NCBI RefSeq assembly: GCF_024502345.1
Contig: NZ_JALDNN010000001.1
Length of the DNA: 64,000 bases
Source: Escherichia coli
Lineage (GTDB): Bacteria; Pseudomonadota; Gammaproteobacteria; Enterobacterales; Enterobacteriaceae
Reading direction: 5' to 3' (one strand)
A model generated the notes under the pieces. That model was not told where the DNA came from and did no database searches. It saw only the letters and a list, made by a program, of their open reading frames with translations. The position numbers and the translations under genes were made by a program. Below are positions 6,230 to 35,278 of this stretch, one piece after another (within the stretch, counting starts at the first letter, position 1; every line of letters begins with the position of its first letter).

Positions 6230-6671
6230 AGTGGACTATCGAAAATTGCAGGAACTGTTCACGCGGATCGCCATCGATAAACATATTCAGCAAAAGCTTG
6301 AACATCCTCACCACCAGCTGGTGGCTACCTACCAGTCATTAAACCGCAAGTATTCAGAATTGCTGGAGGAATACAAAATCCTTCGGCGCTGCTTCTCTGT
6401 TTCCGCTCTTGTTCCTTATACCGACGTATGGACACATAAGCCTGTTCAGTTTTATCCAGGCAAACATCCATGCGAAAAACCTGCCGACATGCTGAAACAG
6501 ATCATTAGCGCCAGCAGCAGACCGGGGGATATCGTTGCCGATTTCTTTATGGGCTCTGGTTCAACTGTGAAAGCTGCAATAGAACTTGGCCGTCGGGCGA
6601 TCGGCGTAGAACTGGAGGCAGACAGGTTTATACAGACCACCGAAGAGGTGGAAAAACTGAAAAAATCATAA
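6220..6671 (+). pseudogene. 5'-truncated N6-adenine/N4-cytosine DNA methyltransferase (C-terminal fragment only)
   Basis: Translation contains HPCEKP then DIVADFFMGSGSTVKAAIELGRRAIGVE (SAM-binding FxGxG block of beta-class MTases); no start codon and no N-terminal DPPY catalytic motif; reading frame begins at the napB joint. Confidence 0.7.
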
Positions 6672-6816: not shown

Positions 6817-7095
6817 ATGACCAGAATGAGCACCATTTACAGCAGACTTTCATATGGATCAGGAACCACGCTTGCCGGCTGCGGTGTATCAGCGAAGGCA
6901 TATGCCGAAACAGCTAAAACAGCAAAAGAGGTGTCCTGGATGTTGGCCGACAGAATTGCAGGGTTAAGCCTGAGTGACTGGGCAATTATTGTCGGTATCG
7001 CATGCACAGTTATCACCTGTGCAGTGAACTGGTATTACAGGAAAAAGGAAAGGGAGGACCGGCTTAATGGCAATGTCACCAAAGCAGAAGAATAA
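6817..7095 (+). CDS. phage holin
   Basis: 92 aa, hydrophobic helix WAIIVGIACTVITCAVNWYY, charged C-terminus, immediately upstream of endolysin. Confidence 0.7.
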   Translation: MTRMSTIYSRLSYGSGTTLAGCGVSAKAYAETAKTAKEVSWMLADRIAGLSLSDWAIIVGIACTVITCAVNWYYRKKEREDRLNGNVTKAEE

Positions 7096-7615
7096 ACTGA
7101 GCGCAGCGGTCGTTGGGTTAATTCTTGCCGGGGCTTCCGCACCCGTGATTCTCGATCAGTTTCTGGATGAGAAAGAGGGTAACAGCACAACAGCGTACAA
7201 GGACGGCTCTGGTATATGGACCATTTGTCGTGGCGCTACGATGGTTGATGGCAAGCCAGTAGTTCAGGGCATGAAGCTGTCTGCTGAGAAATGTTCCAAG
7301 GTGAACGCCATAGAACGCGACAAGGCGCTGGCGTGGGTCGAGCGAAACATCAAGGTGCCACTGACCGAACCACAGAAAGCCGGGATCGCGTCTTTCTGCC
7401 CATATAACATCGGTCCCGGAAAATGTTTCCCATCTACGTTCTATAAGCGAATAAATGCTGGCGACCGTGAAGGTGCCTGTGAAGCGATCCGCTGGTGGAT
7501 AAAAGACGGTGGTCGCGATTGTCGTCTGACCAAAGGGCAGAAGAACGGTTGCTATGGTCAGGTTGAACGGCGAGACCAGGAAAGCGCGTTGACGTGCTGG
7601 GGGATAGACCAGTGA
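7067..7615 (+). CDS. phage endolysin, lysozyme family with N-terminal signal-anchor (SAR-type)
   Basis: 182 aa; N-terminal hydrophobic [18 protein letters not shown] followed by lysozyme-like body; position between holin and Rz. Confidence 0.8.
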
Positions 7616-8127
7616 GCCTGCGCTATCAGTTCATTGTTATTTTGTTGCTGGTGGCCGTTGCATTCTTCGCGGGTAGTGTATGGAGCAGCCGCGGTTGGGA
7701 AAAGAAGTGGGCCGAGCGTGACAGCGTAGAATCATCGCAAACAGCGAACGCACAGACCGCCGCTCGCATGATTGAACAAGGGCGTATTATTGCCCGTGAT
7801 GAGGCTGTAAAAGATGCACAAGCACAAGCCGCTAAATCCGCTGCCACTGCTGCTGGCCTGTCTGCCACTGTTAACCAGCTGCGTACCGAAGCAACAAAGC
7901 TTGCCACTCGCCTGGACGCCGCAAAGCACACCGCAGATCTTGCCACTGCCGTCAGAAGCAAAACAGCCGGAGCCGACGCCGCAGTGCTCGCCGACATGCT
8001 CGGACGCCTTGCAGAAGAAGCTCGATATTATGCTGAGCGATCTGACGAAAGCTACCGGGCAGGAATGACGTGTGAGCGCATTTACGACTCAGTGAGGCAG
8101 TCAAACAACAACAGGGTTAGAAGATGA
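7594..8127 (+). CDS. i-spanin (Rz-like); true start may be GTG at 7612
   Basis: N-terminal TM ([15 protein letters not shown]), coiled-coil Ala/Gln-rich periplasmic domain; Rz1 nested in +1 frame. Confidence 0.8.
7814..8068 (+). CDS. o-spanin (Rz1-like lipoprotein) nested inside Rz
   Basis: Signal peptide with lipobox LLTSC, proline-rich mature region; entirely embedded in Rz in another frame. Confidence 0.75.
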
Positions 8128-8354
8128 ACGCAGAAAACCTAAGTGAAGCGTATTACCTCAATAACGATATAAAAGAACTACAACTTCAGAAAAGCATACT
8201 GGAAAGTGGTGCCGGACTTGGTGTGACAATCCAGTCTACCTATCAGGATAACGCCTTTCTTGATGCCATACGCCCGCATGCAGTGGCTGAACTTGATCGC
8301 CGTATTGTGGAGAAGAAAAAAAACCTCTCCACTCTGGGTGTTACATTCTCTTAA
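8124..8354 (+). CDS. hypothetical protein, start overlaps Rz stop (ATGA)
   Basis: 76 aa ORF translationally coupled to Rz; no recognisable motif. Confidence 0.45.
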
Positions 8355-8701
8355 ATGAGAACAACAATAAAAGGTTATGTCTGCTTTGCCACATTCTGAG
8401 AGTATGAGTTTTATTTGGTAGTCAATCAGTTACTTTATTGGTTTGCTTTCCGATGGAAGATAGATGTTTCCACAGAAGGGGCAAATTAACGTTATATTGT
8501 TTTTTATTCTCGACAGACTGTGCTTTGACTGGCGGGAGCAATGAGGACAAGTACTTTTCACATGGCGTAAAGTACGCATCTTGATATCTTTGAGTATCGA
8601 CATGTTGATTGTCCTGGTGGGCGGTTAACAACCATACACCACATGTTGGCTAATAGCTTCTTTTATAACCGTTACGATGTAGTCGTTAGCCATAATCAAT
8701 C

Positions 8702-8727
8702 AAGCCTCGCAATAGCGGGGCTTTTTA
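8702..8727 (+). terminator. possible hairpin plus T-run
   Basis: agcctcgc-aata-gcggggct followed by ttttt. Confidence 0.35.
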
Positions 8728-8738
8728 ACAACTGAGGA

Positions 8739-8942
8739 ATGAGCATTACAGTAGTTCTTACAGCTAAGCAGATTGAAGACCTGGCTGCCTTCGCAAAAGA
8801 AGATGGCCAGCCACAATATACCATCACTACCGGAACAATCCCTGAGTTCGAAGCGGATGATGGCGAGGTTATCCCTGAGTACACCGGGCTGATTGCCTAT
8901 TCCGAGTCGCTAGAGCATAGCGTTCTACAGCTCGATAACTAA
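8739..8942 (+). CDS. hypothetical small acidic protein
   Basis: 67 aa, Asp/Glu-rich, SD-like gaggaa upstream; a degenerate copy of its 3' end recurs at 10.8-10.96 kb. Confidence 0.5.
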   Translation: MSITVVLTAKQIEDLAAFAKEDGQPQYTITTGTIPEFEADDGEVIPEYTGLIAYSESLEHSVLQLDN

Positions 8943-8969
8943 CGAATCAACATAACTTTCCATCCGCCA

Positions 8970-9135
8970 TGACACCACAATGCTCGTAGACATGCCAGGA
9001 AGCCTGGCAGAAGAAGCTCGATACCATGCTGAACGCGCTGATGAAAACTACCGAGCAGGAATGACATGTGAGCGGATTTATGAGTCCGTAAAAATACTAA
9101 CAATGAACCGTAGAGGAAAAATAATAGCTCTATAA
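8970..9135 (+). pseudogene. duplicated 3' fragment of the Rz gene
   Basis: 9006-9092 is an imperfect direct repeat of 8011-8097 (gcagaagaagctcgata..gcaggaatgac.tgtgagcg..attta); would encode ..[27 protein letters not shown].. Confidence 0.7.
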
Positions 9136-9514
9136 ATTAAGATGTTGACGGTTTTCGTGGATAAATTTGTGAATTTTTACTATGAAGGAAATACGACTCT
9201 TCCTTGAGTCAAAATCCCTGACAACTTAGGGTGATAGATAAAGGTCTTACGCAGCATGACATAATTTTCGATTTAAGCTATTTAAATTAATTTTTAAGAT
9301 CAAAACCCACTGAGATTTACTTACAAAACTAAACCTTGCTATGTCTGGTTAATCATGCGTTAATGAATGTCTGGTTTGTAACGAATTTATCTGAAGCAGT
9401 CGCTGTAATAATTTTATTCCTTGTTCCTGTTGAGATTTCCTTGTTAGCTTTTCTCTCTGATAAATTTTTTTCGGACCATTCTGCCCAAGGGCTTACTCAA
9501 TAAAGGTAATGTTT

Positions 9515-9727
9515 ATGTCTAATAAAATGACTGGTTTAGTTAAATGGTTTAATCCTGAAAAAGGTTTTGGTTTTATCACTCCAAAAGATGGTAGTAAAGA
9601 TGTGTTTGTTCACTTCTCTGCTATCCAGAGTAATGATTTCAAGACGTTGAATGAGAATCAGGAAGTTGAATTTAGTGTTGAACAGGGACCTAAAGGCCCC
9701 ACGGCAGTTAATGTCGTGGCTGTATAA
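9515..9727 (+). CDS. cold-shock protein (CspA family), prophage-borne
   Basis: 70 aa [23 protein letters not shown]...; long AT-rich 5' leader typical of csp genes. Confidence 0.9.
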
Positions 9728-9931
9728 GGTAACTGTTATTACTAATAATATTCACTTCAGATGTCCGTGTTGCCACGGATCTCAGTACCGAACGTCAAAC
9801 TTTGATGTTACTGAAAAAAATCCTTTCGGAGCAAAATGTATTTTTTGCAAATCAACAATGATTACATTTGATAATATTGCACTGTACATTCGTTCTGGTC
9901 AGTCTTCGTTAGAATTCAGAAAATAAATTTC

Positions 9932-9955
9932 AGGCTCCTTATGGAGCCTTTTTTG
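9932..9955 (+). terminator. rho-independent terminator
   Basis: aggctcc-ttat-ggagcct followed by tttttt. Confidence 0.7.
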
Positions 9956-9999
9956 TATGCTGAACCGACAATCTCTGTAAGAGACATCACGGTAAAATT

Positions 10000-10230
10000 A
10001 TGAAAAAAGTCATCGTTTTTTTTAATGCAGAACCAGCAGTTGTTGTAACCGTAATGAAAGGTATTACTACGATAATGCGTGAGTTTCCCAATGGGGAAAA
10101 AGCACACCTACCCGTGATGTCAGCGGGATTTCCATCTCTGACAGGAGACCATAAAATAGTTTATGTAGCCTCTGATCGTGATGTCAGTTCAGAAGAGATC
10201 CTCGAGGCAGCCTCGAAGCTTTTGAAATGA
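10000..10230 (+). CDS. hypothetical protein
   Basis: 76 aa ORF; weak RBS; no recognisable motif. Confidence 0.35.
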   Translation: MKKVIVFFNAEPAVVVTVMKGITTIMREFPNGEKAHLPVMSAGFPSLTGDHKIVYVASDRDVSSEEILEAASKLLK

Positions 10231-10434
10231 GATCTGGTTGTTTCGTGACCGACCCGGATTTTAGTACAGTGGTTTGTGTGGTCGCGAGCTCTTTTGCATG
10301 AAGATTGTACTGCAAACTATTGATAATTGAGTCTTTCTATTCTATCTTTTAAACATATCAGCGCTTATACAAGTGCTCTACGGGGAATGTAACATGCCTG
10401 GCGTTGATACGTTAGAGATCAAGAGAGGTAAACA

Positions 10435-10608
10435 ATGAACGTCGAAGATTTAAAAAGAAAAACTGAAGCGGATATTTCTGAATTCATCACAAAAAAAATT
10501 ATTGAACTCAAAAAAAAGACAGGAAAAGAAGTTTCCGATATCCAGTTTAATGCTCGTGAAAAAATGACTGGGCTTGAAAGCTATGATATTAAAATCACAT
10601 TAATCTAA
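10435..10608 (+). CDS. GnsA/GnsB-family small protein
   Basis: 57 aa MNVEDLKRKTEADISEFITKKIIELKKKTGKEVSDIQFNAREKMTGLESYDIKITLI; strong similarity to recalled GnsA/GnsB; below the 60-aa cutoff of the ORF track. Confidence 0.8.
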   Translation: MNVEDLKRKTEADISEFITKKIIELKKKTGKEVSDIQFNAREKMTGLESYDIKITLI

Positions 10609-10632
10609 TTGTTATAAGACTCAGTTCGAGTG

Positions 10633-10667
10633 AAAAAGCATTATCTTGAAAGGTAATGCTTTTTTAT
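10633..10667 (+). terminator. rho-independent terminator after gns-like gene
   Basis: aaagcatta-tcttgaaagg-taatgcttt followed by tttatttc. Confidence 0.7.
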
Positions 10668-10760
10668 TTCTGTCATAAAATTTAGAACGTTGTCAAAGCC
10701 TTCACTTCTAACCACAGATTTTCTGCTTACCTTTTAACGGGTCCTCCTTGACGATTCTGA

Positions 10761-10964
10761 CCATCGAGGGGCAGCAGCGGCGCGGGATTTGGAGCATTTT
10801 TGATTCTTCACGCAACCATTTCAGCATTTGATGCTGATGACGGAACACTATCCCCGAATACACTGGGTTTGTTGCATTCTCTGATTCAAAAGAACACGGT
10901 GTGCTTCAACTTGGCTGAGCAGGCATTACAGCAGACATTCACTGAGTGCCTGCGACAAAGTTAA
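10761..10964 (+). pseudogene. start-less 3' remnant related to the 8739-8942 gene
   Basis: Frame encodes ..FDADDGTLSPNTLGLL.. resembling ..FEADDGEVIPEYTGLI.. of the 8739 ORF; no in-frame start codon after the upstream stop. Confidence 0.45.
10921..10958 (+). repeat. ~35-bp boundary repeat, copy 1
   Basis: cattacagcagacattcactgagtgcctgcgacaa; near-identical copy at 11311-11343. Confidence 0.6.
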
Positions 10965-11049
10965 ATGGCATCAAGCATGCGATGATGATTGATTAATAAT
11001 TGAGCTATGCATGGTATAATAAGCCCCATTCATTGAAAGGTTAACCACC

Positions 11050-11214
11050 ATGTCATTTTTCGATTATGCAATGCAGCGTGTTGGGCTTGCAGCCAATACG
11101 ACTGTCATGTGCCCGATATGCGGACATAAATCCACACACTCGACCACGAAAGTACGCCAACAACAGGCGTTACTTTGCCCTAAATGTAAATCGCTGTTTG
11201 TCATTCACAGATAA
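11050..11214 (+). CDS. small zinc-ribbon protein (CxxC...CxxC)
   Basis: 54 aa MSFFDYAMQRVGLAANTTVMCPICGH...LCPKCKSLFVIHR; upstream -10 tataat at ~11015; two terminators downstream. Confidence 0.6.
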   Translation: MSFFDYAMQRVGLAANTTVMCPICGHKSTHSTTKVRQQQALLCPKCKSLFVIHR

Positions 11215-11232
11215 CATGCGACCTGCTGAATA

Positions 11233-11257
11233 TAACCGCCTACGGGCGGTTTTTTAT
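11233..11257 (+). terminator. rho-independent terminator
   Basis: accgcctacgggcggt followed by tttttt. Confidence 0.75.
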
Positions 11258-11268
11258 TGCCATCACAA

Positions 11269-11293
11269 AGGCCACTTTCGAGTGGCTTTTTTA
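11269..11293 (+). terminator. second rho-independent terminator
   Basis: gccactttcgagtggc followed by ttttttaa. Confidence 0.65.
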
Positions 11294-11310
11294 ATGGTCA
11301 TCACGACGGG

Positions 11311-11343
11311 TATTACAGCAGGAATTACTGAGTGCCTGCGATA
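11311..11343 (+). repeat. ~35-bp boundary repeat, copy 2
   Basis: tattacagcaggaattactgagtgcctgcgataat; matches 10921-10958. Confidence 0.6.
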
Positions 11344-11370
11344 ATGCTCAATATTTTTATCGGAGTGAAT

Positions 11371-11559
11371 ATGCCACCGCGCACACCGAAGGCCGGCCTG
11401 AAAGGGGCGATACAAAAAAGGGAAAAAATGAAAAGACATAAGCGAAATAAAAAAGCCACCACATCTGCAAATGTGATGGCTGGCATTCGGATTAATTCAG
11501 GTTGGCTGAATAAGTTAGCCGCAGATATTACTAAAATAATTAATGAAGCATGTCCCTAA
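11371..11559 (+). CDS. hypothetical small basic protein
   Basis: 62 aa from ATG with ggag SD; Lys/Arg-rich; no known motif. Confidence 0.3.
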   Translation: MPPRTPKAGLKGAIQKREKMKRHKRNKKATTSANVMAGIRINSGWLNKLAADITKIINEACP

Positions 11560-11956
11560 TCTCATCTGAGATATCTCTTGGCCCTGCAGGCTGAGGCGCA
11601 ACCAACCGGGTCGGAAGTCTCTCGAAGAAACCACCACCACCATGATGATGAAAACCCCGGTTATTTTTATAACTATTGAAGTTACTGTCGGTAGTGAGAA
11701 GGATGTTGCACTGGTGCGAGCAGTCAACAACAACGACATCACCTGCATTCAGGTGCATTCGTTTGTGAAGAAATTGCATAAGTCTCCTTATCAAGAGGCA
11801 ATCAGCACTCCTCTCAAGGCTGGTACGCCAACGTCCCACCGCTGACGGGCTGAGCCATTACCTTACCCAGACTCAACGATAAGTAACATCCTGATATTCA
11901 GACAGTAACTGTAATCGATAATGCTGAAGAATAGGCAGTAAATACAGGTGACTGAT

Positions 11957-17943: not shown

Positions 17944-18806
17944 ATCTACCCCATCTGGCCCAGCGATTATTTAACACCCCGCTGGCGCTGCACCCGAGTA
18001 AAGCCGAAGTCATCATGGCATCCGTAATGGACCGATTTGGTATCAGTAAAATCGAATCTTCTCTTGCCATGGAGGATGACTGGTACGGATATGACGATAA
18101 CCGGGGACGTGAATCCCGTAGTGATCCGGGTTATGACAATGTGCTGGGTGTCGCCGTCATCCCGATATGCGGAACGCTGGTGCAAAAACTGGGCAGTCTG
18201 CGTCCGTACAGTGGAATGACAGGGTATGACGGCATTCGTCAGGCGTTTCTTACTGCGATGGAAGATCCCGACATTTCGGGCATTTGCCTGGATATCGACT
18301 CACCCGGCGGCGAGGTCGCTGGATGCTTCGATCTGGTTGATGTCATTTACGGCTCCCGGGGGAAAAAGCCTATCCATGCCATTCTGACGGAAAGCGCTTA
18401 TTCCGCTGCGTATGCCATTGCCAGTGCAGCGGACCGGATTTCTGTTCCGCGCACCGGCGGAGTGGGTTCTGTGGGTGTGATCACCATGCACCTTGACTGG
18501 ACGCAGCGGATTAAAGATGACGGTCTTAAAGTTACGATCATCACCTATGGATCCCGCAAGGCTGAAGGTTCGCCGCTGAGAGAGTTGTCAGATGAAGCTC
18601 TGGCCGCCATCCAGCAGGACATTAACACCATGGGCGAATTGTTTGTGAACACTGTTGCCAGAAACCGGGGGATTAGCGCAAAGGTTATAAAAAGTACCCA
18701 GGCCGCCTGTTTTATGGCTGCTGATGGCGTTGAAATTGGACTGGCTGATGAGGTGTGTCCTCCTGACGCTGCGTTCAAAAACTTACTTGAAAAAACAGGA
18801 GCCTGA
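17940..18806 (+). CDS. head maturation protease (S49/ClpP-like)
   Basis: 288 aa, gene order after portal. Confidence 0.7.
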   Translation: MNLPHLAQRLFNTPLALHPSKAEVIMASVMDRFGISKIESSLAMEDDWYGYDDNRGRESRSDPGYDNVLGVAVIPICGTLVQKLGSLRPYSGMTGYDGIRQAFLTAMEDPDISGICLDIDSPGGEVAGCFDLVDVIYGSRGKKPIHAILTESAYSAAYAIASAADRISVPRTGGVGSVGVITMHLDWTQRIKDDGLKVTIITYGSRKAEGSPLRELSDEALAAIQQDINTMGELFVNTVARNRGISAKVIKSTQAACFMAADGVEIGLADEVCPPDAAFKNLLEKTGA

Positions 18807-18807
18807 A

Positions 18808-19398
18808 ATGGCAAAGAAAAAGACGTTTAGTTTTGCTCACCTCATTGGTCTTGGCCCTTCCGCTTCTGAGGAAGAAGAGGATAAAAAAGCCAAAAAAGCG
18901 AAAGCCCGTCGCGCGGAAGAGGACGAGCGCGAAGATGATGCCGATGATGATGAGCGCGACGACGACGCGGAAGAAGACGAACGCGACGATGATGCTGAAG
19001 ATGACGGCGATGATCCGGATGCGTCAGAAGATGATGATTCTGAAGACGACGGCGACGACGATCGCAAAGAGAGTAAGGCGGTAAAAAATGCACGCGCTGC
19101 TGAGCGTAAACGCTGCGCCCGTATTTTCGGCAGTAAGCATGCAGCTGCGAATCCTTCACTGGCCGCGTCACTGGCTTTCAATACCGGGATGAGTTCTGCG
19201 GCAGCAATTAATGTCCTAGCCTCTTCGGCTCCGGCCGCAGCCGCATCTCAGCCATCCCGTAAACGCTCTCTCGATCAGCGTATGCAGGAAAGCCACCAGG
19301 TCCGGCTTAATCCGGATAGCGGACAGAAAGAGACCGGAAAGTCTGCGCTGGTAAGTAAAATGACCGGCCTCTACAACTCCACAAGAGGAGAGAAATAA
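18808..19398 (+). CDS. putative scaffolding protein with long acidic low-complexity tract
   Basis: 196 aa; SD aggagc; ~70-residue run of D/E (DDADDDERDDDAEEDERDDDAEDDGDD...). Confidence 0.6.
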   Translation: MAKKKTFSFAHLIGLGPSASEEEEDKKAKKAKARRAEEDEREDDADDDERDDDAEEDERDDDAEDDGDDPDASEDDDSEDDGDDDRKESKAVKNARAAERKRCARIFGSKHAAANPSLAASLAFNTGMSSAAAINVLASSAPAAAASQPSRKRSLDQRMQESHQVRLNPDSGQKETGKSALVSKMTGLYNSTRGEK

Positions 19399-22240: not shown

Positions 22241-22438
22241 ATGTTTGTTAAGCCGAACAACGGGCTCAGCGTTCGCTGCCCCGTCAAGGGCATCCCATTG
22301 CCTAAAGAGGGTGCTGAAGTACCTGACAATATTTTCTGGCGTCGCCGTCTGAGCGATGGGGACGTGATCCTCTCTAAAAAGGATGAGGGCGCGCCAGAGA
22401 AACAATCATTACCTAAAAAAGCGGGAGAAAATGAATGA
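22241..22438 (+). CDS. small hypothetical tail-module protein
   Basis: 65 aa, overlaps sheath start. Confidence 0.45.
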   Translation: MFVKPNNGLSVRCPVKGIPLPKEGAEVPDNIFWRRRLSDGDVILSKKDEGAPEKQSLPKKAGENE

Positions 22439-23937
22439 CCGTACCTTTCGCTCGTGTTCCCGATAACCTGCGGGTAGGGCTTTTCTTCGTTGAGTTTGAT
22501 AACTCAATGGCGAATAACGCCACTGCCACGCAGCGCACCCTGCTTATCGGTGGGATGCTCAGTACCGGCTCAACCCTCCCTGGTATTCCGCAGCGAGTTT
22601 CCTCTTCGGATACCGTCGGTGAGCTGACAGGAAAAGGGGGAATTCTGCAGGCCATGATGGCGGCGTATCAGAAAAATGATACCGCAGCCGAAGTCTGGAT
22701 CCTGCCGCTGGAGGAAGACTCCGATTCCATGGTGGCTGCAACCGGCACCATTAGAGTGAGCAGCGCACCGACGGAAACCGGAGTGATCTCCCTTTATATT
22801 GCTGGTGAGCGCATTCAGTTGACCGTTGTAGCAACAGATACGGTGGCAGCGATCGCCACCTCTCTGGCCGCGGCGATTAACGCAAAAACCACGCTACCTG
22901 TAACCGCCAGTGCGACTACGGATACCGTAACCCTGACCGCGAAGAATCTTGGTGCTACGGGTAATGGGATCGACATTCGCCTGAACTTCCTCGGCTTACC
23001 TGGAGGCGAGTCCACACCTGCAGGCCTGGAACTGACGATTACTGCTATGTCTAACGGAGTCGGGGCTCCGGATATTACCGGCGAGCTGGCAAACCTGCAG
23101 GATCGGACATTCGATTTCATCATCAACCCTTACGACGATACAACCTCGTTGAATGTGATGAAGGAGTTCCTGTCAGACACTGGCGGTCGCTGGGCATGGG
23201 ACAAGCAGCTTTATGGCCATTCCTTTGGTACAACCACCGGGACTTACGCCCAGCTCGGTACCAAAGGTGAGCTGCGCAATAACCAGCATGAGACCCTGCT
23301 GGGCGTAAATAAATCGCCGTCCCCTTCCTGGGCATGGTCTGCAGCTTACACCGGCGCAGCTGCGGTGAGTCTGCGTAATGACCCCGGCCGCCCGCTACAG
23401 TCGCTCGCTGTTCAGGGGGTGCTTGCGCCAGAACTGCAGGATCGCTTTGAGCTGACCGAGCGTAACAATCTGCTGTACAGCGGCATTTCGACATTTACGG
23501 TCGATGACGATGGCACGGTGCGCATTGAAAACCTGATCACCACCTACCAGAAAAACAGCTATGGCGATGCAGATGACAGTTATCTGGAAGTGGAGACGCT
23601 GTTCAGCCTGATGTTTGTGACCCGCTACCTGCGCACAGCGGTGACCAGCAAGTTTGGCCGTATGAAGCTTGCTGCGGATGGAACCCGATTTGCACCTGGC
23701 GCGGCGATCGTCACGCCAAACATTATCAAGGCCGATCAGATTGCCGAGTACCAGACTCTGGTATGGAACGGTTATGCGCAGGATGCGGAGGCATTCGCAA
23801 AAAATATCATCGTCGAGCAGAACGCCAAAAATCCGAACCGCGTCGATGTGCTGTGGCCGGGAACCCTCATGAACCAGTTGCGCATTTTCGCGCTGCTCAA
23901 TCAGTTCCGCACTCGGGCTGAATCAACAGGAGCTTAA
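22435..23937 (+). CDS. contractile tail sheath protein (Mu gpL-like)
   Basis: 500 aa, followed by tube gene. Confidence 0.8.
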   Translation: MTVPFARVPDNLRVGLFFVEFDNSMANNATATQRTLLIGGMLSTGSTLPGIPQRVSSSDTVGELTGKGGILQAMMAAYQKNDTAAEVWILPLEEDSDSMVAATGTIRVSSAPTETGVISLYIAGERIQLTVVATDTVAAIATSLAAAINAKTTLPVTASATTDTVTLTAKNLGATGNGIDIRLNFLGLPGGESTPAGLELTITAMSNGVGAPDITGELANLQDRTFDFIINPYDDTTSLNVMKEFLSDTGGRWAWDKQLYGHSFGTTTGTYAQLGTKGELRNNQHETLLGVNKSPSPSWAWSAAYTGAAAVSLRNDPGRPLQSLAVQGVLAPELQDRFELTERNNLLYSGISTFTVDDDGTVRIENLITTYQKNSYGDADDSYLEVETLFSLMFVTRYLRTAVTSKFGRMKLAADGTRFAPGAAIVTPNIIKADQIAEYQTLVWNGYAQDAEAFAKNIIVEQNAKNPNRVDVLWPGTLMNQLRIFALLNQFRTRAESTGA

Positions 23938-23940
23938 ACG

Positions 23941-24312
23941 ATGGCAGGTGATACTACTAACCGCCTGGCGGGAACCGCCTATGTCACTGTTAACGGTGTG
24001 ACGGTAATGGTGGAGGGCTCGTTTAAATACCAGGCTGCCACCGTAAACCGTACCACCCTGACAGGGATGGATGGTGTGCACGGATATAAGGAAAAACCTG
24101 TGGCGCCATACATTTCTGCCCGACTGCGTGACAGTGGCGGAACGAATGTGCAGGGCTTTAACCAGCAGACGAACGTCAACGTGATCGCCGAGCTGGCTAA
24201 CGGGAAAACTATCATTGGCCGTTCACTCTGGACGGTCAACGTCCAGGAAGTGGAAAGCGAAGATGCAGTATTTGATGTTCGCTGGGAAGGCCGCGACGTA
24301 ACGGAGAACTAA
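23941..24312 (+). CDS. tail tube protein (Mu gpM-like)
   Basis: 123 aa, position. Confidence 0.75.
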   Translation: MAGDTTNRLAGTAYVTVNGVTVMVEGSFKYQAATVNRTTLTGMDGVHGYKEKPVAPYISARLRDSGGTNVQGFNQQTNVNVIAELANGKTIIGRSLWTVNVQEVESEDAVFDVRWEGRDVTEN

Positions 24313-24313
24313 G

Positions 24314-24592
24314 ATGGCTGAGATTGAACGCGTTAAAACCATTCCATTAACCGTAGCGCTGGATGATGCTGCGGAGAAGACCACTTATACGCAGCTGGAG
24401 CTGAAAGCACCCACGCTAAGCCAGGCTGAGCAGTTTTACGAGAAACAGGCTGCGTCAACGTCGCTCGCGGCGATGCGCCTGCTTATTGCGCTGGTTTCCG
24501 GTACGCGTGAAAGCGTACTGCAGCCGATGGATTTTCTCGACTTCCGTAAGTGTGAGGAGTATCTGCTCAGTTTTTTGACCTGGAAGCCCTGA
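24314..24592 (+). CDS. tail assembly chaperone (short form)
   Basis: 92 aa, immediately upstream of tape measure; contains slippery heptamer near 3' end. Confidence 0.7.
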   Translation: MAEIERVKTIPLTVALDDAAEKTTYTQLELKAPTLSQAEQFYEKQAASTSLAAMRLLIALVSGTRESVLQPMDFLDFRKCEEYLLSFLTWKP

Positions 24593-24741
24593 CAACCTGG
24601 CAGGAAATGGCCGCTGACGTCACCTTCTATTTCCGCTGGTCTGAGGACAGGGCGTGGGGAATGACCCGCGCCCGGCTGAAATGGTGGGTGGCGCAGGCAT
24701 CCCGGATAAACAAGCTTAGGAAACCTGAAGACGATGAGTAA
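24314..24741 (+). CDS. tail assembly chaperone, -1 frameshifted long form
   Basis: Zero-frame ORF to 24577 joined to -1 frame extension ..TWQEMAADVTFYFRWSEDRAWGMTRARLKWWVAQASRINKLRKPEDDE. Confidence 0.55.
24571..24577 (+). promoter_or_regulatory. Programmed -1 ribosomal frameshift slippery site T TTT TTG
   Basis: ttttttg with TTT TTG in the zero frame; the -1 frame stays open to 24741, overlapping the tape-measure start. Confidence 0.65.
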
Positions 24742-26662
24742 TTCTTTTGATTTTGAGCTGGTGGCCAGCGACCAGGTTAGCGAGGCTATAGACCGCATTA
24801 ATGAGGCTGTCCGTGACCTGGAGCCGAAGCTAGATAAAACTAAAGAAGGGCTCAAGTTAGGCGGTCAGGAAACAGCCGACGGACTGAGCGGTTTTATTTC
24901 TCGCCTCGAGAATATGTCGAAGAGCGCGCGGGATAACGTGCAGTTTATTGGCGACATGGTTCCCCCACTGAAAATGGTGGGGGAGCTCACGGGGAAGATG
25001 GGGGCGCTGGGGTTAGCCGGTGCTGCCGGCTACGGACTGAAACAGGTCGCTTATGGATTTCGGGAGGCATCCCGTCAGGCCTATAATCTTGATGTCTCGG
25101 CAAAAAATGCGGGAATGCGCGTTGACGATTTTACCCGACTTTCCGGGGCAATGCGTATTCTTGGGGCAGACAGCGAGAGCGCTAATGCATCAATAGAAGG
25201 TATTTTCAAAGCATTCAATGAGGCTGCCAGTGGTAAAAACGAGGGGGTTATGGCAGCGATGGCGCAAATTGGTGCTCAAATCCAAAAAAACAGCGATGGT
25301 TCAGTAAATACCCTTAAAACACTGGAGTCTATCGCAAAAATTTTTCCAACCTTGCGACCTGAACAGCAGAAGTCCGCCGCTGATGCACTTGGGCTGACGC
25401 CCGAATTGCTGGCGCTAATGCGTGACGGTGAGCGCATGAAAAAGCTGCTGGCGAAATCGGATGAATTTGGTCTGACTGTGGATCCGGCACTAAATCAGCA
25501 ATTGAGTGAAGTGAACGGCACTATGAATGAGCTCAGCGCATCCTGGGATGGTCTGTGGCAACGTTCAAAAAACAAGGCACTTAAGACCATTCTTTCGGAT
25601 GGTTCAGTCAAAGACGGCCTTGAAGGTGTTACCGATCTGTTCACTAATGGTGATTTTACTGGGCTGTCTCATGCTCTCGGTTTTATCAACAGCAATGATG
25701 CTGAGAAACTACGGCGCATTCAGAACGATAAGGAACTTTATAACAGCTTACCCCGCAGTGAACGTGGGCAGGTTGACGCGGGTTTCATGACTGATGCTGT
25801 AAGAAAGCGGTACGATGCGAATTACCGCGCGACCGATTCTGCGATTCAATTGCAGAATGACTTATCCGCTATCAGCCAGCCACAATCCAACGTTGCACGC
25901 GGCAATGTTCCTTACGGGGAAACAAGGAATAACGCAATTGGCTTCAGAAATAATAATCCCGGTAATTTGAGGGCTGCAGCAAACGCAACGGGTAAAAATG
26001 GCGGATTTTCTACCTTTGCGAATGATGCCGACGGAAGAGCTGCAATGGCGAGACAGCTGATGTTGTATGGTGACAGGGGGAATAATACTCTGGATGGGAT
26101 TATTCATACCTATGCTCCGCAATCAGAGAATAATACTCGTGCATATATTGATTCCGTATCAAAAAGTACTGGGTTTGGAGCGCAGCAGCGTATTAATCTC
26201 CACGATCCTGATGTGTTAAAAACACTGATGGCAGCAATGATTAAACATGAAAGCGGAGCACAGCCGTATACCGAAAATGAACTGAGCGATTCTGTCCGGA
26301 CGGCCATCATTGACGATCGGTGGAAGGGTTTACGTAGCCCGGAAGTTCTGGCTCAACAGCGATATGATATTATCTCAGGTTCGCAAACTGGAAATCGTGA
26401 CTCCAGCACTCTTAGTAACCCGAGTGATGAAACTGATATTCTCTCAGGCTCGCAGAACAGAAATCGGGAATCCATCATTCTGAGTGATACGGGTAAGAAA
26501 AGTGATGAAAGTGTACTCGGCGACAATCTGGCTAAGTCTCTTAAAGAGGCAATGTCAGAACAACCACTTAAGCTCGAAATCACAATGGTTAATGATAAGG
26601 GTGAGCGAAAAACCTATAATGCGGAAAATAATGGCAGAATAACAACGGCCATGAATTACTGA
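24734..26662 (+). CDS. tail tape measure protein
   Basis: 642 aa, helical-rich, position after chaperone pair; C-terminal imperfect tandem repeat (ISGSQTGNRDSS / LSGSQNRNRESI). Confidence 0.8.
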   Translation: MSNSFDFELVASDQVSEAIDRINEAVRDLEPKLDKTKEGLKLGGQETADGLSGFISRLENMSKSARDNVQFIGDMVPPLKMVGELTGKMGALGLAGAAGYGLKQVAYGFREASRQAYNLDVSAKNAGMRVDDFTRLSGAMRILGADSESANASIEGIFKAFNEAASGKNEGVMAAMAQIGAQIQKNSDGSVNTLKTLESIAKIFPTLRPEQQKSAADALGLTPELLALMRDGERMKKLLAKSDEFGLTVDPALNQQLSEVNGTMNELSASWDGLWQRSKNKALKTILSDGSVKDGLEGVTDLFTNGDFTGLSHALGFINSNDAEKLRRIQNDKELYNSLPRSERGQVDAGFMTDAVRKRYDANYRATDSAIQLQNDLSAISQPQSNVARGNVPYGETRNNAIGFRNNNPGNLRAAANATGKNGGFSTFANDADGRAAMARQLMLYGDRGNNTLDGIIHTYAPQSENNTRAYIDSVSKSTGFGAQQRINLHDPDVLKTLMAAMIKHESGAQPYTENELSDSVRTAIIDDRWKGLRSPEVLAQQRYDIISGSQTGNRDSSTLSNPSDETDILSGSQNRNRESIILSDTGKKSDESVLGDNLAKSLKEAMSEQPLKLEITMVNDKGERKTYNAENNGRITTAMNY

Positions 26663-26693
26663 TCACTGTCGTCATTTCGTTAAGGAAGAAGTT

Positions 26694-26942
26694 ATGAATG
26701 AAAAAGTTTTTGGAGCAAAAGCCATTTAGACTCCAAAGGTTTTTGCGCTTGTTTACCTGGTAATTGGCATTTTCCTCGTTTTTTCTGTTGTCTCAATGAA
26801 TTTCACGGCGATTACGATATCGGTGGTAAGTGCATTGCTTTTACGTGTGCTTTATGAGTTCCTAATGAACTCATTCAAGGCGACTGAGCATCTTTACAGG
26901 ATCGCCGAATCTCTTGACCGTAATGGATCCAGCGATAAATAG
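26694..26942 (+). pseudogene. small membrane protein ORF interrupted by an in-frame amber (TAG) codon at 26727-26729
   Basis: SD aaggaag then ATG; 11 codons, TAG, then the same frame stays open for 70 codons encoding a hydrophobic helix (VFALVYLVIGIFLVFSVVS...); internal ATG at 26796 has no SD. Confidence 0.5.
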
Positions 26943-26965
26943 ATAAGTCATTTCAGTGCATATGT

Positions 26966-26993
26966 AAACCGCCGACATGGCGGTTTTTTTATT
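26966..26993 (+). terminator. rho-independent terminator
   Basis: aaccgccgacatggcggtt followed by ttttttt. Confidence 0.8.
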
Positions 26994-27002
26994 TCCGGAG
27001 GC

Positions 27003-32291: not shown

Positions 32292-32924
32292 ATGCTCCGA
32301 ATCGGGCAAGTCGAAGCCACTGCAACGCAGGATGGCAAATATACTGATGGAAGTGTTGCTGGTGGTATTGCCGCAACGAGGCTGCGGGCAGCAGCGTTTA
32401 ATGCCATGCAGGAAGAGTTAGCGCATATCGTAGAGTCAGCAGGATTGGCGCTCGACATTAACGATATGACTCAGGTTTTAAAAGCCATTCAAAAACTCAC
32501 ACTGAGCCGTGCAAACCCATTTGCCGATATCAAATCAGATGGTGCAGCGGCGATTTCTACGGCTCTCACAAACCTTGGATTGGGCGAAGCGGCGAAATGT
32601 AACGTTGGAACTAGTGCTAACCAGATCCCCGATATGTCGTTTTTCACATATTCAAACGGTGTTTATAGATTCCCCAATGGGCTGATTCTGCAAATATTTA
32701 ACAGGGTAACATCAACTACAGATACAACTACAGCATTTACTTTCCCTACGGTTTTTCCTGATTCATGCCACGGCATTTTTTCGACATATAACTCGGGGAC
32801 AGCAGGTAACTACTACACGTTCAATAATGTGACTCCTGCGGGTGCAAATATGCAGGCGTTTCTCGGGTCGCCCACACCTACCAAGGGCGGCAGTACTGCA
32901 ACAATAGTTGCGTTCGGGAGGTAA
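32292..32924 (+). CDS. side tail fibre protein (e14 StfP-like)
   Basis: 210 aa, Gly/Thr/Ser-rich C-terminus, followed by tail fibre assembly gene. Confidence 0.7.
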   Translation: MLRIGQVEATATQDGKYTDGSVAGGIAATRLRAAAFNAMQEELAHIVESAGLALDINDMTQVLKAIQKLTLSRANPFADIKSDGAAAISTALTNLGLGEAAKCNVGTSANQIPDMSFFTYSNGVYRFPNGLILQIFNRVTSTTDTTTAFTFPTVFPDSCHGIFSTYNSGTAGNYYTFNNVTPAGANMQAFLGSPTPTKGGSTATIVAFGR

Positions 32925-32926
32925 TA

Positions 32927-33352
32927 ATGCAATACGCCTATAGCCAGTCGCAGAATCTGTTTTATGTGCGTGAGTGGGAGCGTGACTACGGGGATTCATG
33001 GCCTCAAGATTGCCTTGATGTATCCGACGAGCAATTCAGAGAGTTCAGTGTTGAGCAAGCACCTGGAAAGGTTCGCTCACCAGGTATTGATGGTCTTCCA
33101 TGCTGGATTGACGTGCCACCGCCAACGCAAGACGAATTAATCGCTATAGCTGCTGCAGAAAAACAGCGACTGATTGCTGCTGCTAACGAATTTATGAATG
33201 GGAAGCAATGGCCCGGTAAGGCGGCAATTGGTCGGCTGAAAGGCGATGAGTTGTCGCAGTACAACTTGTGGCTGGATTATCTCGACGCCCTAGAAGCGGT
33301 CGACACCTCCAGCGCACCAGATATCAACTGGCCTATTCAGCCGGAAGTGTAG
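32927..33352 (+). CDS. tail fibre assembly protein (TfaP-like)
   Basis: 141 aa; strong SD gggagg; position. Confidence 0.7.
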   Translation: MQYAYSQSQNLFYVREWERDYGDSWPQDCLDVSDEQFREFSVEQAPGKVRSPGIDGLPCWIDVPPPTQDELIAIAAAEKQRLIAAANEFMNGKQWPGKAAIGRLKGDELSQYNLWLDYLDALEAVDTSSAPDINWPIQPEV

Positions 33353-33518: not shown

Positions 33519-33576
33519 CATCAAAAATCTGGTGATGCTTCGCCGTTTCTCCTGTTTTCATAACAGGAGAAATCCC

Positions 33577-34131
33577 ATGATTTACGGTTATGCCCGAGTA
33601 TCAACAAACCACCAGGACACTGAATTGCAACTAACGGCGCTCAAGTCAGCGGGTTGTGAGAAAATTTTTGAAGAGCATGCCAGCGGGAGGAAATCGAATC
33701 GGCCGGTTCTAAAACGGCTCATCGCCACTATGCAGCCGGGGGATGAACTGGTGGTATGGAAACTAGATCGCCTCGGGCGAAGCATGCGAAATTTAGTGCT
33801 GCTGGTCGACGAACTCCGACAGCGGGGCATTCACTTTAAGAGCCTCACGGACAGCATTGATACATCAAGTCCAATGGGGCGTTTTATATTTCACATCATG
33901 TCAGCGCTGGCGGAAATGGAAAGAGAGTTAATCGTCGAACGCACCCGGGCTGGATTAGCGGCTGCGCGGGAAAAAGGGAGAATAGGTGGCAGACGTCCAA
34001 AATTAACTCCCGAGCAATGGGCACAGGCTGGGAGATTAATATTAAACGGCGTGGATAGAAAACAAGTGGCAATAATTTATGATGTCGCTGTATGCACGCT
34101 TTATAAAAAATTTCCGGTGGGGCAGGCTTAA
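33577..34131 (+). CDS. pin: serine-recombinase DNA invertase (Pin/Gin/Hin family)
   Basis: 184 aa MIYGYARVSTNHQD... with catalytic Ser near N-terminus and C-terminal HTH. Confidence 0.9.
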   Translation: MIYGYARVSTNHQDTELQLTALKSAGCEKIFEEHASGRKSNRPVLKRLIATMQPGDELVVWKLDRLGRSMRNLVLLVDELRQRGIHFKSLTDSIDTSSPMGRFIFHIMSALAEMERELIVERTRAGLAAAREKGRIGGRRPKLTPEQWAQAGRLILNGVDRKQVAIIYDVAVCTLYKKFPVGQA

Positions 34132-34173: not shown

Positions 34174-34437
34174 TTATCCATTTTGCCGGACAGTTGGAAA
34201 TTCAGACGTCAGCCACATGTCAGATTCATCAAACATTTCCTCCAGCATACGGTTCAGCTTTTCCCGATCACTTTTGCTGGCATCACTATTTAAGCCGTTC
34301 GCCTGCATCGGCTTTACCTTCACTTCGGCATCAGGAAAAATCTGGTGCACCCGCTTCGTTAGTTCAGCCAGGATGATCTCTCTGGCCCCTTGGAGTCCTT
34401 CAACATTTCGCTTGTCATAAACCAGTTCAACAAACAT
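34174..34437 (-). CDS. DinI-family protein
   Basis: 87 aa MFVELVYDK...AELTKRVHQIFPDAEVKVKP...ESDMWLTSE; SD gagagga; LexA box upstream. Confidence 0.8.
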   Translation of the reverse strand: MFVELVYDKRNVEGLQGAREIILAELTKRVHQIFPDAEVKVKPMQANGLNSDASKSDREKLNRMLEEMFDESDMWLTSEFPTVRQNG

Positions 34438-34493
34438 ACCGATCCTCTCATAAGTGAAAATTGCCTGTGCTTGATCTGTTTTTATAAAAATAC

Positions 34494-34513
34494 TACTGTA
34501 TATGCATACAGTC
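34494..34513. promoter_or_regulatory. LexA (SOS) box between divergent genes
   Basis: tactgtatatgcatacagtc fits CTGT-N8-ACAG; 57 bp upstream of dinI-like start and 24 bp upstream of the 34537 ORF. Confidence 0.8.
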
Positions 34514-34536
34514 AATAAGCGAGTGAGGGTGCGTTC

Positions 34537-34776
34537 ATGCCTCGTCAACCGGATATTCGTGCTGCTTTTATTGCGGCCATACAGCAAAACCCGAAGGGCT
34601 ATCTCTGCCTGCATACAGACAGATTCATCGCTGAACTGCAGGAGAGGCGCTGGCACTTCAGCCAGGCGGATGCAAATTCATGGATCGAACGATACCAGCC
34701 AGACTTCGCCGATAAGACGACAAACGGAAGTGAGAACCGATACTGGATCCTGCGTAACATGGGGAGGGTTTTCTAA
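34537..34776 (+). CDS. hypothetical protein, first gene of SOS-box-associated pair
   Basis: 79 aa; SD gagggtg; stop overlaps next start (TAATG). Confidence 0.65.
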   Translation: MPRQPDIRAAFIAAIQQNPKGYLCLHTDRFIAELQERRWHFSQADANSWIERYQPDFADKTTNGSENRYWILRNMGRVF

Positions 34777-35201: not shown

Positions 35202-35278
35202 TGGTCGGCACGAGAGGATTTGAACCTCCGACCCCCGACACCCCATGACGGTGCGCTACCAGGCTGCGCTACGTGCCG
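35202..35278 (-). tRNA. proL: tRNA-Pro
   Basis: 77 nt; reverse complement reads CGGCACGTAGCGCAGCCTGGTAGCGCACCGTCATGGGGTGTCGGGGGTCGGAGGTTCAAATCCTCTCGTGCCGACCA. Confidence 0.95.

What the first reader, a model, noticed from the sequence alone, without database searches (positions are those of the whole stretch)
24560..24745. Programmed -1 frameshift site in the tail assembly chaperone gene
The heptamer T TTT TTG sits at 24571-24577 near the 3' end of the 92-aa chaperone ORF, and the -1 frame stays open for ~55 further codons to 24741, overlapping the tape-measure start. This is the conserved chaperone short/long arrangement of tailed phages, and it argues the tail module is still under selection.
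Basis: partly seen in the sequence, partly recalled or inferred. Interest (0 to 1): 0.35.

Follow-up and report, generated by a model that had tools for sequence, protein, structure and literature searches.

The report
P2-type tail chaperone frameshift site
An E. coli prophage makes a short and a long version of its tail-assembly chaperone by letting some ribosomes slip back one base at TTTTTTG, the trick already proven in phage P2, so this is a real but ordinary feature that annotation pipelines miss.

Summary
T TTT TTG (24571-24577) lies in register in the 92-aa ORF 24314-24592, which matches Pfam PF10109 (the P2 E / Mu gp41 chaperone family). The -1 frame runs 54 more sense codons to TAA 24739-24741 and overlaps the tape-measure ATG (24734) by 8 nt.

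The predicted products are 92 and 142 aa; P2 E and E+E' are 91 and 142 aa, with the same heptamer and the same ATGAGTAA junction.

Comparative evidence is decisive:
- All 106 related loci (60 unique sequences, two clades about 50% identical) keep TTTTTTG or TTTTTTA in register and an open -1 frame.
- dN/dS in the -1 frame is 0.03-0.27, against at least 1 in the other two frames.
- Synonymous sites are frozen at the heptamer.
- The internal ATG 24607 is not conserved, so this is not a separate gene.
- A profile of the extension retrieves P2 E'-family (PF06528) ORFs, and eight distant relatives all show the same layout.

No downstream RNA structure was found. A conserved GAGG 13 nt upstream may be a stimulator.

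This is a new, unannotated member of a well-known kind. One caveat: this prophage copy is truncated on its left side, so present-day selection on it is not shown.

The parts
24314..24592 (+). Short tail assembly chaperone ORF (92 aa, 0 frame), the counterpart of P2 gpE
   Evidence: Pfam PF10109 Phage_TAC_7 at E=2.4e-8, 34.3 bits against a cut-off of 25; phrog_166 at 1e-26. RefSeq calls it 'phage tail assembly protein'. GGAG at 24303-24306 lies 7 nt before the ATG.
24571..24577 (+). Slippery heptamer T TTT TTG (X XXY YYZ), in register with the 0 frame
   Evidence: It is invariant in the 46 unique gene sequences of the window's clade and is TTTTTTG or TTTTTTA in the 20 unique sequences of the BZS1 clade. 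Codons F87 TTT, L88 TTG and T89 ACC are three of only five DNA-invariant codons among 51 codons with an invariant, degenerate amino acid. The preceding codon varies (AGT, GGT, TCT) but always ends in T.
24577..24741 (+). The -1 frame extension (54 codons plus TAA), the counterpart of P2 E'. The long form is join(24314..24577, 24577..24741) = 142 aa
   Evidence: dN/dS is 0.03-0.27 in this frame and at least 1 in the other two. The third codon position is the most variable: 38 of 46 columns, against 21 and 17. phrog_10636 at 1.7e-23. hhalign to P2 E' gives E=2.7e-4. 21 of 53 profile hits are PF06528.
24554..24559 (+). Shine-Dalgarno-like GAGGAG (core GAGG 24554-24557) 13 nt upstream of the heptamer; a candidate stimulator, not tested
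   Evidence: Codon E81 GAG is DNA-invariant in both clades although GAA would be synonymous. GAGG or GGAGG lies 7-10 nt upstream of the heptamer in 3 of 8 distant relatives.
24734..26662 (+). Tape measure protein gene. Its ATG overlaps the extension's stop (ATGAGTAA), as P2 T overlaps E'
   Evidence: phrog_2276 at 2.9e-152. The junction sequence is the same as in P2.
23941..24312 (+). Tail tube gene immediately upstream
   Evidence: PF10618 at 1.8e-35.
22435..23937 (+). Tail sheath gene
   Evidence: PF04984 and PF17482; phrog_165 at 4.8e-187.

Best explanation
This is a programmed -1 ribosomal frameshift of the P2 E/E+E' type.

Most ribosomes translate the chaperone ORF 24314-24592 to its TGA and make the 92-aa short form. 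A minority slip back one base on U UUU UUG, with tRNA-Phe on UUU in the P site and tRNA-Leu on UUG in the A site. They re-pair on UUU UUU, continue from GAC at 24577 and end at TAA 24741. This gives a 142-aa long form with the same N-terminus and an E'-like C-terminal domain.

Shown here: the site, the frames, their conservation, coding selection on the -1 frame, and homology of both halves to P2 E and E'.

Inferred from lambda G/GT and P2: the two forms are made in a fixed ratio, coat the tape-measure protein and recruit tube subunits, and are both needed for tail assembly but absent from virions.

No downstream RNA structure seems to be involved. A conserved upstream GAGG may add stimulation through pairing with 16S rRNA.
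For: - Sequence anatomy.
- The short ORF is PF10109. The flanking genes are tube and tape measure.
- P2 carries the annotated -1 frameshift with the same layout: E 91 aa, E+E' 142 aa, GGTTTTTTG, and ATGAGTAA overlapping the start of gene T. PMC3091744 reports TTTTTTG as the P2 shift site.
- 84 sequences of the window's clade (83 fetched loci plus the window; 47 unique) and 22 BZS1-clade loci (20 unique) all keep the heptamer in register, a -1 extension of 49 or 40 codons past the stop, and a closed +1 frame.
- A 14-nt block, GTTTTTTGACCTGG, is invariant amid variable synonymous sites. Only 5 of 51 invariant-residue codons are frozen at DNA level, and 3 of them are the heptamer and the next codon.
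- In some loci a TAG sits immediately before TTT TTT in the -1 frame. This limits the shift to the seven codons between the heptamer and the 0-frame stop.
- dN/dS is 0.03-0.27 in the -1 frame only.
- The extension profile finds 55 representatives, nearly all short ORFs. 21 of the 53 scanned match PF06528 Phage_P2_GpE.
- Eight distant representatives all show tube, PF10109 ORF, a -1 ORF and a long gene, with TTTTTTG (5), TTTTTTA, TTTTTTC or GGGTTTC in the overlap.
Against: - No product was observed; everything here is computational.
- U UUU UUA, the nearest heptamer tested in E. coli, was much less shift-prone there than A AAA AAG (PMC5009743). No stimulatory structure was found: the 83 nt downstream fold with z=-0.7, covariation in the alignment is weak, and Rfam gives no hit.
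- The window's extension does not itself reach Pfam PF06528. Its link to P2 E' rests on hhalign at E=2.7e-4 with only 42% probability and on transitive profile hits.
- This prophage copy is truncated, so the genes may not be expressed in this host.
Confidence: 0.9

Rival explanations
1. The slip happens during transcription, not translation. RNA polymerase adds an extra U at the T6 run, and a subset of mRNAs then encodes the 142-aa protein by ordinary translation.
For: The site is a homopolymer run, and conservation of the run and of the -1 frame fits this reading equally well. One database ORF (P0001, Raoultella) reads straight through at the run, which shows that one-base length changes at the run are at least recorded, probably as sequencing errors.
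Against: The bacterial transcriptional slippage described in PMC5009743 is on runs of 9 A or T; this run has 6. The register of the run is strictly conserved as X XXY YYZ, and the final base is G or A (a Leu codon) in nearly all relatives. Ribosomal tandem slippage needs these features; polymerase slippage does not. The GenBank record of P2 annotates the homologous shift as a -1 translational frameshift.
Confidence: 0.04
2. The -1 frame ORF is an independent small gene (44 aa, ATG 24607 to 24741, as in phrog_10636) with its own translation start. No recoding is involved.
For: An ATG at 24607 is preceded by AGGA. Gene callers often call this ORF as a separate small protein.
Against: The ATG is present in only 15 of 44 unique sequences of the window's clade and in 0 of 16 in the BZS1 clade. 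No start codon is conserved across both clades. Residues upstream of it (L90, L93, W96, Q97) are invariant. The frame is never interrupted between the heptamer and that ATG in any of the 60 unique sequences. Many distant homologues' called ORFs begin with ..FF.., which is the T run read in the -1 frame.
Confidence: 0.02
3. The site is a relic. The sequence is intact, but in this truncated prophage the tail operon is silent, so no frameshifting takes place in this host.
For: Homology to a complete relative begins at window 6216, inside a DNA methylase gene and directly after napB. No integrase, repressor or antiterminator is present in the window.
Against: This concerns expression of this copy, not the nature of the site. 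All structural ORFs from terminase to tail fibre are intact. No terminator-like or promoter-like site interrupts the chaperone-to-tape-measure junction.
Confidence: 0.3

Closest known systems
Phage P2 gpE / gpE+E' (-1 frameshift at TTTTTTG; Christie et al. 2002 and Xu, Hendrix & Duda 2004, as cited in PMC3091744)
   Same: - Both N-termini match the same Pfam family, PF10109.
- The heptamer is the same and has the same G before it in many relatives (GGTTTTTTG).
- The shift is -1 in both.
- Product sizes are 92/142 aa here and 91/142 aa in P2.
- The extension's stop overlaps the tape-measure ATG as ATGAGTAA in both.
- No downstream RNA structure is found in either.
- The gene order is sheath, tube, chaperone, tape measure.
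   Different: - Sequence similarity is remote. BLASTP aligns only 34 residues of the extension at 29% identity, and hhalign gives E=2.7e-4.
- The window's extension does not reach PF06528 on its own.
- The surrounding tail module is Mu-like and the head genes are lambda-like, not P2-like.
Phage Mu gp41 / Mu_56 (-2 frameshift, annotated as verified)
   Same: The neighbouring genes are Mu homologues: DUF2635 (Mup38), sheath L, tube M (PF10618), DNA circularisation protein N (PF07157) and baseplate protein P (PF21683). The name of Pfam family PF10109 covers proteins 'E, or 41 or 14'.
   Different: Mu shifts by -2, into the +1 frame, from a 144-aa chaperone. Here the +1 frame closes after 8 codons and the shift is -1 from a 92-aa chaperone. 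hhalign finds no similarity to a hand-joined Mu fusion protein; the exact junction was not checked against the record's join.
Phage lambda gpG / gpGT (-1 at G GGA AAG)
   Same: The position between the major tail gene and the tape-measure gene is the same, as are the short and long forms with a shared N-terminus. The presumed role is also the same: the G part binds the tape measure, the T part recruits tail tube subunits, and both are absent from virions (PMC5009743).
   Different: The heptamer and the tRNAs involved differ. No sequence similarity to lambda was found or tested here; only fold-level resemblance to the HK97 chaperone was seen. Lambda has a non-contractile tail.
E. coli dnaX -1 frameshift cassette
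   Same: Both are tandem-slippage heptamers. Here an upstream Shine-Dalgarno-like element (GAGG, 13 nt before the site) is conserved at synonymous positions.
   Different: There is no downstream stem-loop here, the heptamer differs, and the role of the GAGG is untested.

Membership tests
Tailed-phage chaperone frameshift (G/GT arrangement; Xu, Hendrix & Duda 2004) | Two overlapping ORFs lie between the major tail (tube) gene and the tape-measure gene | tested here: met
   Tube 23941-24312, 0-frame ORF 24314-24592, -1 ORF to 24741, tape measure from 24734.
Tailed-phage chaperone frameshift (G/GT arrangement; Xu, Hendrix & Duda 2004) | A slippery sequence lies in register inside the overlap of the two frames | tested here: met
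   T TTT TTG at 24571-24577. The overlap window is 24557-24592.
Tailed-phage chaperone frameshift (G/GT arrangement; Xu, Hendrix & Duda 2004) | The site and the second frame are conserved in homologues despite sequence divergence | tested here: met
   60 unique sequences in two clades plus 8 distant relatives. dN/dS is 0.03-0.27 in the -1 frame.
Tailed-phage chaperone frameshift (G/GT arrangement; Xu, Hendrix & Duda 2004) | Both products are made in a set ratio, are required for tail assembly and are absent from virions | not testable with these tools
   This needs protein detection and genetics.
P2 E/E+E' family | The N-terminal domain belongs to Pfam PF10109 (Phage_TAC_7) | tested here: met
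   E=2.4e-8, 34.3 bits against a gathering score of 25. P2 E+E' scores 1.4e-12.
P2 E/E+E' family | The C-terminal extension belongs to Pfam PF06528 (Phage_P2_GpE) | tested here: inconclusive
   There is no direct hit even at E<=10. However, hhalign to P2 E' gives E=2.7e-4 and is collinear, and 21 of the 53 representatives found with the extension profile and scanned match PF06528.
P2 E/E+E' family | A -1 shift at TTTTTTG, with the extension ending on the tape-measure start | tested here: met
   The heptamer and the ATGAGTAA junction are identical to P2.
Mu gp41 -2 frameshift | The extension is encoded in the +1 (-2) frame | tested here: not met
   The +1 frame is open for only 8 codons past the stop. 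The conserved coding frame is -1.
dnaX-type stimulated -1 frameshift | An upstream Shine-Dalgarno-like element and a downstream stem-loop flank the heptamer | tested here: inconclusive
   GAGG is present 13 nt upstream and frozen at synonymous sites. The downstream fold is not significant (z=-0.7) and no conserved helix lies near the site.

The most novel reading that the evidence does not exclude
The chaperone frameshift of this E/E' family may not be a bare heptamer. It may be boosted by a conserved upstream Shine-Dalgarno-like GAGG or GAGGAG that pairs with 16S rRNA 7-13 nt before the slip site, as in dnaX. That would explain why a heptamer that is weak in E. coli, with no downstream structure, still gives a useful ratio of products. 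The supporting evidence is that the Glu codon GAG is frozen in both clades, although GAA is synonymous (and, from general knowledge, the commoner Glu codon in E. coli). GAGG or GGAGG also recurs 7-10 nt upstream in 3 of 8 distant relatives.
Probability: 0.25. Interest if true: 0.3.

Novelty: new member of a known kind. Interest (0 to 1): 0.15.

Why it matters
The main value is for annotation. In RefSeq E. coli genomes, in Citrobacter phage phiNP and in Serratia phage BZS1, the 141 nt between the chaperone and tape-measure genes are left empty. In other collections the stretch is called as an orphan ORF of 35-80 aa. The long chaperone form, which is essential in P2, is therefore missing from the protein sets of this whole prophage lineage. 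That lineage is present in 36 of 5426 complete E. coli genomes.

The finding also shows that a tail module of Mu type can use the P2-type -1 site rather than Mu's own -2 shift. No new biology is implied.

Tried and rejected
- Downstream stimulatory RNA. The 83 nt after the site fold no better than shuffles (z=-0.7). RNAalifold on 13 diverse sequences gives only a weak covariation term and pairs the U run itself. Rfam finds nothing. A local hairpin at 24649-24672 has two compensatory sequences but starts about 70 nt downstream, too far to act on a ribosome at the slip site.
- Independent initiation at ATG 24607: rejected because the start codon is not conserved.
- A +1 or -2 shift as in Mu: rejected because the +1 frame is closed.
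- Chance estimate from the window alone. In-register heptamers are common (104), and the top-scoring 'extensions' are artefacts of spurious ORFs that overlap real genes. Single-sequence statistics are therefore uninformative.
- Sequence search of solved structures: only a spurious PSRP-3 hit at E=0.084. NCBIfam gave no family.
- tblastn of the fused protein against 50,697 phage records finds only phiNP and BZS1.
- The paper of Christie et al. 2002 could not be read because it is not held.
- P0001, a 134-aa 'fused' Raoultella ORF, is probably a homopolymer or assembly error, not a natural in-frame fusion.
Full report
**1. The observation**

- The 92-aa ORF 24314-24592 has codons AGT (24569), TTT (24572) and TTG (24575). 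T TTT TTG at 24571-24577 is therefore an in-register X XXY YYZ heptamer.
- The -1 frame carries stops up to 24556. It is then open to TAA 24739-24741.
- A -1 slip at the heptamer gives a 142-aa protein: residues 1-88 from the 0 frame and 54 from the -1 frame.
- The 642-aa tape-measure ORF starts at ATG 24734, inside the last codons of the extension.
- The +1 frame closes 8 codons beyond the 0-frame stop.
- A heptamer by itself means little. The window holds 104 in-register heptamers in ORFs of at least 80 aa, and long '-1 extensions' arise wherever a spurious ORF overlaps a real gene. The case rests on context and comparison.

**2. Context**

- Upstream lie the tail sheath (22435-23937; PF04984, phrog_165) and the tail tube (23941-24312; PF10618).
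- Downstream lie the tape measure (phrog_2276, E=2.9e-152), a DNA-circularisation protein like Mu gp43 (PF07157) and a Mu gpP-like baseplate hub.
- The 92-aa ORF matches Pfam PF10109, 'Phage tail assembly chaperone proteins, E, or 41 or 14', at E=2.4e-8 and above the gathering score.
- The -1 part matches a 44-residue PHROG of unknown function, phrog_10636, at 1.7e-23.
- No promoter-like or terminator-like site interrupts the junction.
- The element is an E. coli prophage with lambda-like head genes, a Mu-like contractile tail and a Gin-like invertase.
- The 1-kb region around the site is present in 36 of 5426 complete E. coli genomes, and 28 of them are at least 99% identical.
- RefSeq, the record of Citrobacter phage phiNP and the record of Serratia phage BZS1 all annotate only the short chaperone. 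They leave the stretch up to the tape-measure gene (about 120-140 nt) empty.
- The BZS1 paper does not mention a tail frameshift.
- Among 120 database relatives, none is an annotated long form. The only 'fused' ORF, P0001, looks like a homopolymer or assembly error.

**3. Conservation**

- *Window clade.* 80 viral contigs plus three records (83 loci; 47 unique sequences with the window) have chaperones 77-100% identical to the window's. All carry TTTTTTG in register, a -1 extension of 49 codons past the stop and a closed +1 frame.
- *BZS1 clade.* A second clade around BZS1 has chaperones about 50% identical to the window's (22 loci, 20 unique sequences). It carries TTTTTTG or TTTTTTA and an extension of 40 codons that ends in TAATG on the tape-measure start.
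- *Frozen nucleotides.* GTTTTTTGACCTGG is invariant, while nearby synonymous sites vary freely: CGT/CGC/CGA, AAG/AAA, TGT/TGC, CTG/TTA/TTG.
- *Synonymous-site test.* Of 51 codons whose amino acid is invariant and degenerate, only five never change at DNA level. These are K8, E81 (GAG), F87 (TTT), L88 (TTG) and T89 (ACC).
- *First base of the heptamer.* The codon before the heptamer changes its amino acid (AGT Ser, GGT Gly, TCT Ser) but always ends in T, which preserves the first X of the heptamer.
- *Limits on the shift site.* In some loci a TAG sits directly before TTT TTT in the -1 frame. The shift can then occur only within the seven codons from the heptamer to the 0-frame stop.

**4. The -1 frame codes for protein**

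- Between the 0-frame stop and the tape-measure ATG, variable columns fall 21, 17 and 38 (of 46 each) on codon positions 1, 2 and 3 of the -1 frame.
- Nei-Gojobori dN/dS against eight diverged relatives is 0.03-0.27 in the -1 frame and at least 1.06 in the other two frames.
- The internal ATG at 24607 is present in 15 of 44 unique sequences of the window's clade and in none of 16 in the BZS1 clade. No start codon is shared by both clades.
- Residues upstream of that ATG (L90, L93, W96, Q97) are invariant.
- The stretch is therefore a C-terminal extension reached from the chaperone frame, not a gene of its own.

**5. Relation to known systems**

- *P2.* In P2, E is 91 aa and E+E' is 142 aa. The annotated -1 shift is at GGTTTTTTG, and E' ends ...AATGAGTAA on the start of gene T. 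PMC3091744 reports TTTTTTG as the P2 site and no downstream hairpin. Here the numbers are 92 and 142 aa, the heptamer is the same and the ATGAGTAA junction is the same.
- *N-termini.* P2 E+E' and the window protein both match PF10109.
- *Extension.* It aligns collinearly with P2 E': residues 97-132 against 101-136, with BLASTP E=0.001 and hhalign E=2.7e-4. It does not reach PF06528 directly.
- *Profile search.* A profile of twelve extension peptides, searched against 1.84 billion representative proteins, finds 55 proteins at E<=0.001. Nearly all are ORFs of 35-80 aa. Of the 53 scanned, 21 match PF06528. Many begin ..FF.., which is the T run read in the -1 frame.
- *Distant relatives in context.* Eight such representatives were examined on their contigs. 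All lie in the -1 frame over the end of a PF10109 ORF and directly upstream of a long gene, and a tube or sheath gene precedes the chaperone ORF in four of them. The heptamers in the overlap are TTTTTTG (5), TTTTTTA, TTTTTTC and GGGTTTC.
- *Mu.* Phage Mu, whose tail genes are the closest named relatives of the neighbouring genes, uses a -2 shift, annotated as verified, from a 144-aa chaperone. That arrangement is excluded here.

**6. Mechanism**

- The best-supported mechanism is tandem -1 slippage of tRNA-Phe and tRNA-Leu on U UUU UUG, which gives ...LLSFL-DLEALTT... .
- By analogy with lambda G/GT, the shared N-terminal part binds the tape measure and the extension recruits tube subunits. 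Both forms then leave the finished tail (PMC5009743). These steps are inferred, not shown here.
- No downstream structure is present.
- A Shine-Dalgarno-like GAGG at 24554-24557, 13 nt upstream, is frozen at a synonymous site in both clades. It recurs 7-10 nt upstream in 3 of 8 distant relatives. It is a candidate stimulator of the dnaX kind, but it is also part of a conserved Cys-Glu-Glu motif.
- Transcriptional slippage is unlikely on a run of six T, and the strict codon register argues against it. It cannot be excluded without cDNA data.

**7. Caveat on 'still under selection'**

- Purifying selection is shown for the lineage as a whole.
- The window's copy, however, is truncated. Similarity to a complete relative starts at 6216, inside a DNA methylase gene and right after napB (5765-6229).
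- Judged from the standard K-12 gene order (recalled, not checked here), napC, the ccm operon and narP, which should follow napB, are missing.
- The right end abuts a DinI-like gene and tRNA-Pro (35202-35278), followed by yejM.
- No integrase, repressor or late activator is in the window.
- An intact frameshift site in this copy may therefore reflect recent acquisition rather than current use.

**8. Verdict**

This is a real, conserved programmed -1 frameshift site of the P2 E/E+E' type, unannotated in this prophage lineage. It is a new member of a well-known kind and of low surprise.

Noticed in passing
window 6216-6671 and 5765-6229: The prophage copy is cut off on the left. Similarity to the complete ECCWS199 prophage begins at 6216, inside a DNA methyltransferase gene of which only the C-terminal part remains. 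This is directly after an intact napB. Judged from the standard K-12 gene order (recalled, not checked here), napC, the ccm operon and narP should follow napB and are absent. No integrase, repressor or antiterminator is in the window.
   Followed up: partly
window 8100-11900: This is a low-GC stretch (36-45% GC) between the lysis genes and the terminase region. It has no ORF of 100 aa or more, but many small ORFs, including a CspA-like cold-shock protein (9509-9727). Window 7000-11590 has no close (megablast) match in any of 5426 complete E. coli genomes.
   Followed up: partly
window 26663-27002: A 340-nt gap separates the tape-measure and DNA-circularisation genes; in the ECCWS199 relative the gap is only 69 nt. 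It holds a 48-aa ORF with a hydrophobic N-terminus (26796-26942), a promoter-like site (26592-26620) and a terminator-like hairpin (26966-26986). This may be a moron insertion.
   Followed up: no
window 24734-26662 (residues ~393-541): The tape measure protein contains an internal region that matches PHROG families labelled endolysin and 'tail injection transglycosylase' (phrog_873 at 2.1e-39, phrog_7182 at 8.6e-15).
   Followed up: no
window 24649-24672: A local hairpin, GGGCGTGGGG / CCCGCGCCC, lies inside the extension's coding sequence. Two sequences show a compensatory G-C to A-U change. It starts about 70 nt downstream of the slip site and is broken in phiNP.
   Followed up: partly
window 33532-34131, 32292-33352, 34174-34656: A Gin/Hin-type serine invertase (PF00239 plus HTH_7) lies next to the tail-fibre and fibre-assembly genes. 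The window has only one set of fibre-tip genes, whereas ECCWS199 has two opposed sets. A DinI-like gene on the minus strand follows directly, although in the complete relative DinI lies in the early region.
   Followed up: no
window 35202-35278 (minus strand): A tRNA-Pro (GGG) gene lies at the right edge of the prophage and is followed by yejM, yejK and rplY. It is a likely integration site. The ECCWS199 relative instead sits next to yciI and tonB.
   Followed up: no
P0001 (Raoultella ornithinolytica, 134 aa): This database ORF reads straight from the chaperone frame into the -1 frame at the T run (..LLGFFELEAL..) and drifts out of frame again near its end. It is probably a homopolymer or assembly error, not a natural fusion.
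   Followed up: partly
window 18883-18898: Two A AAA AAG heptamers, 9 nt apart, lie in register in an 83-aa ORF whose -1 frame is the 224-aa ORF 18724-19398 in the head-gene region. The 83-aa ORF is most likely spurious and overlaps the real gene.
   Followed up: no
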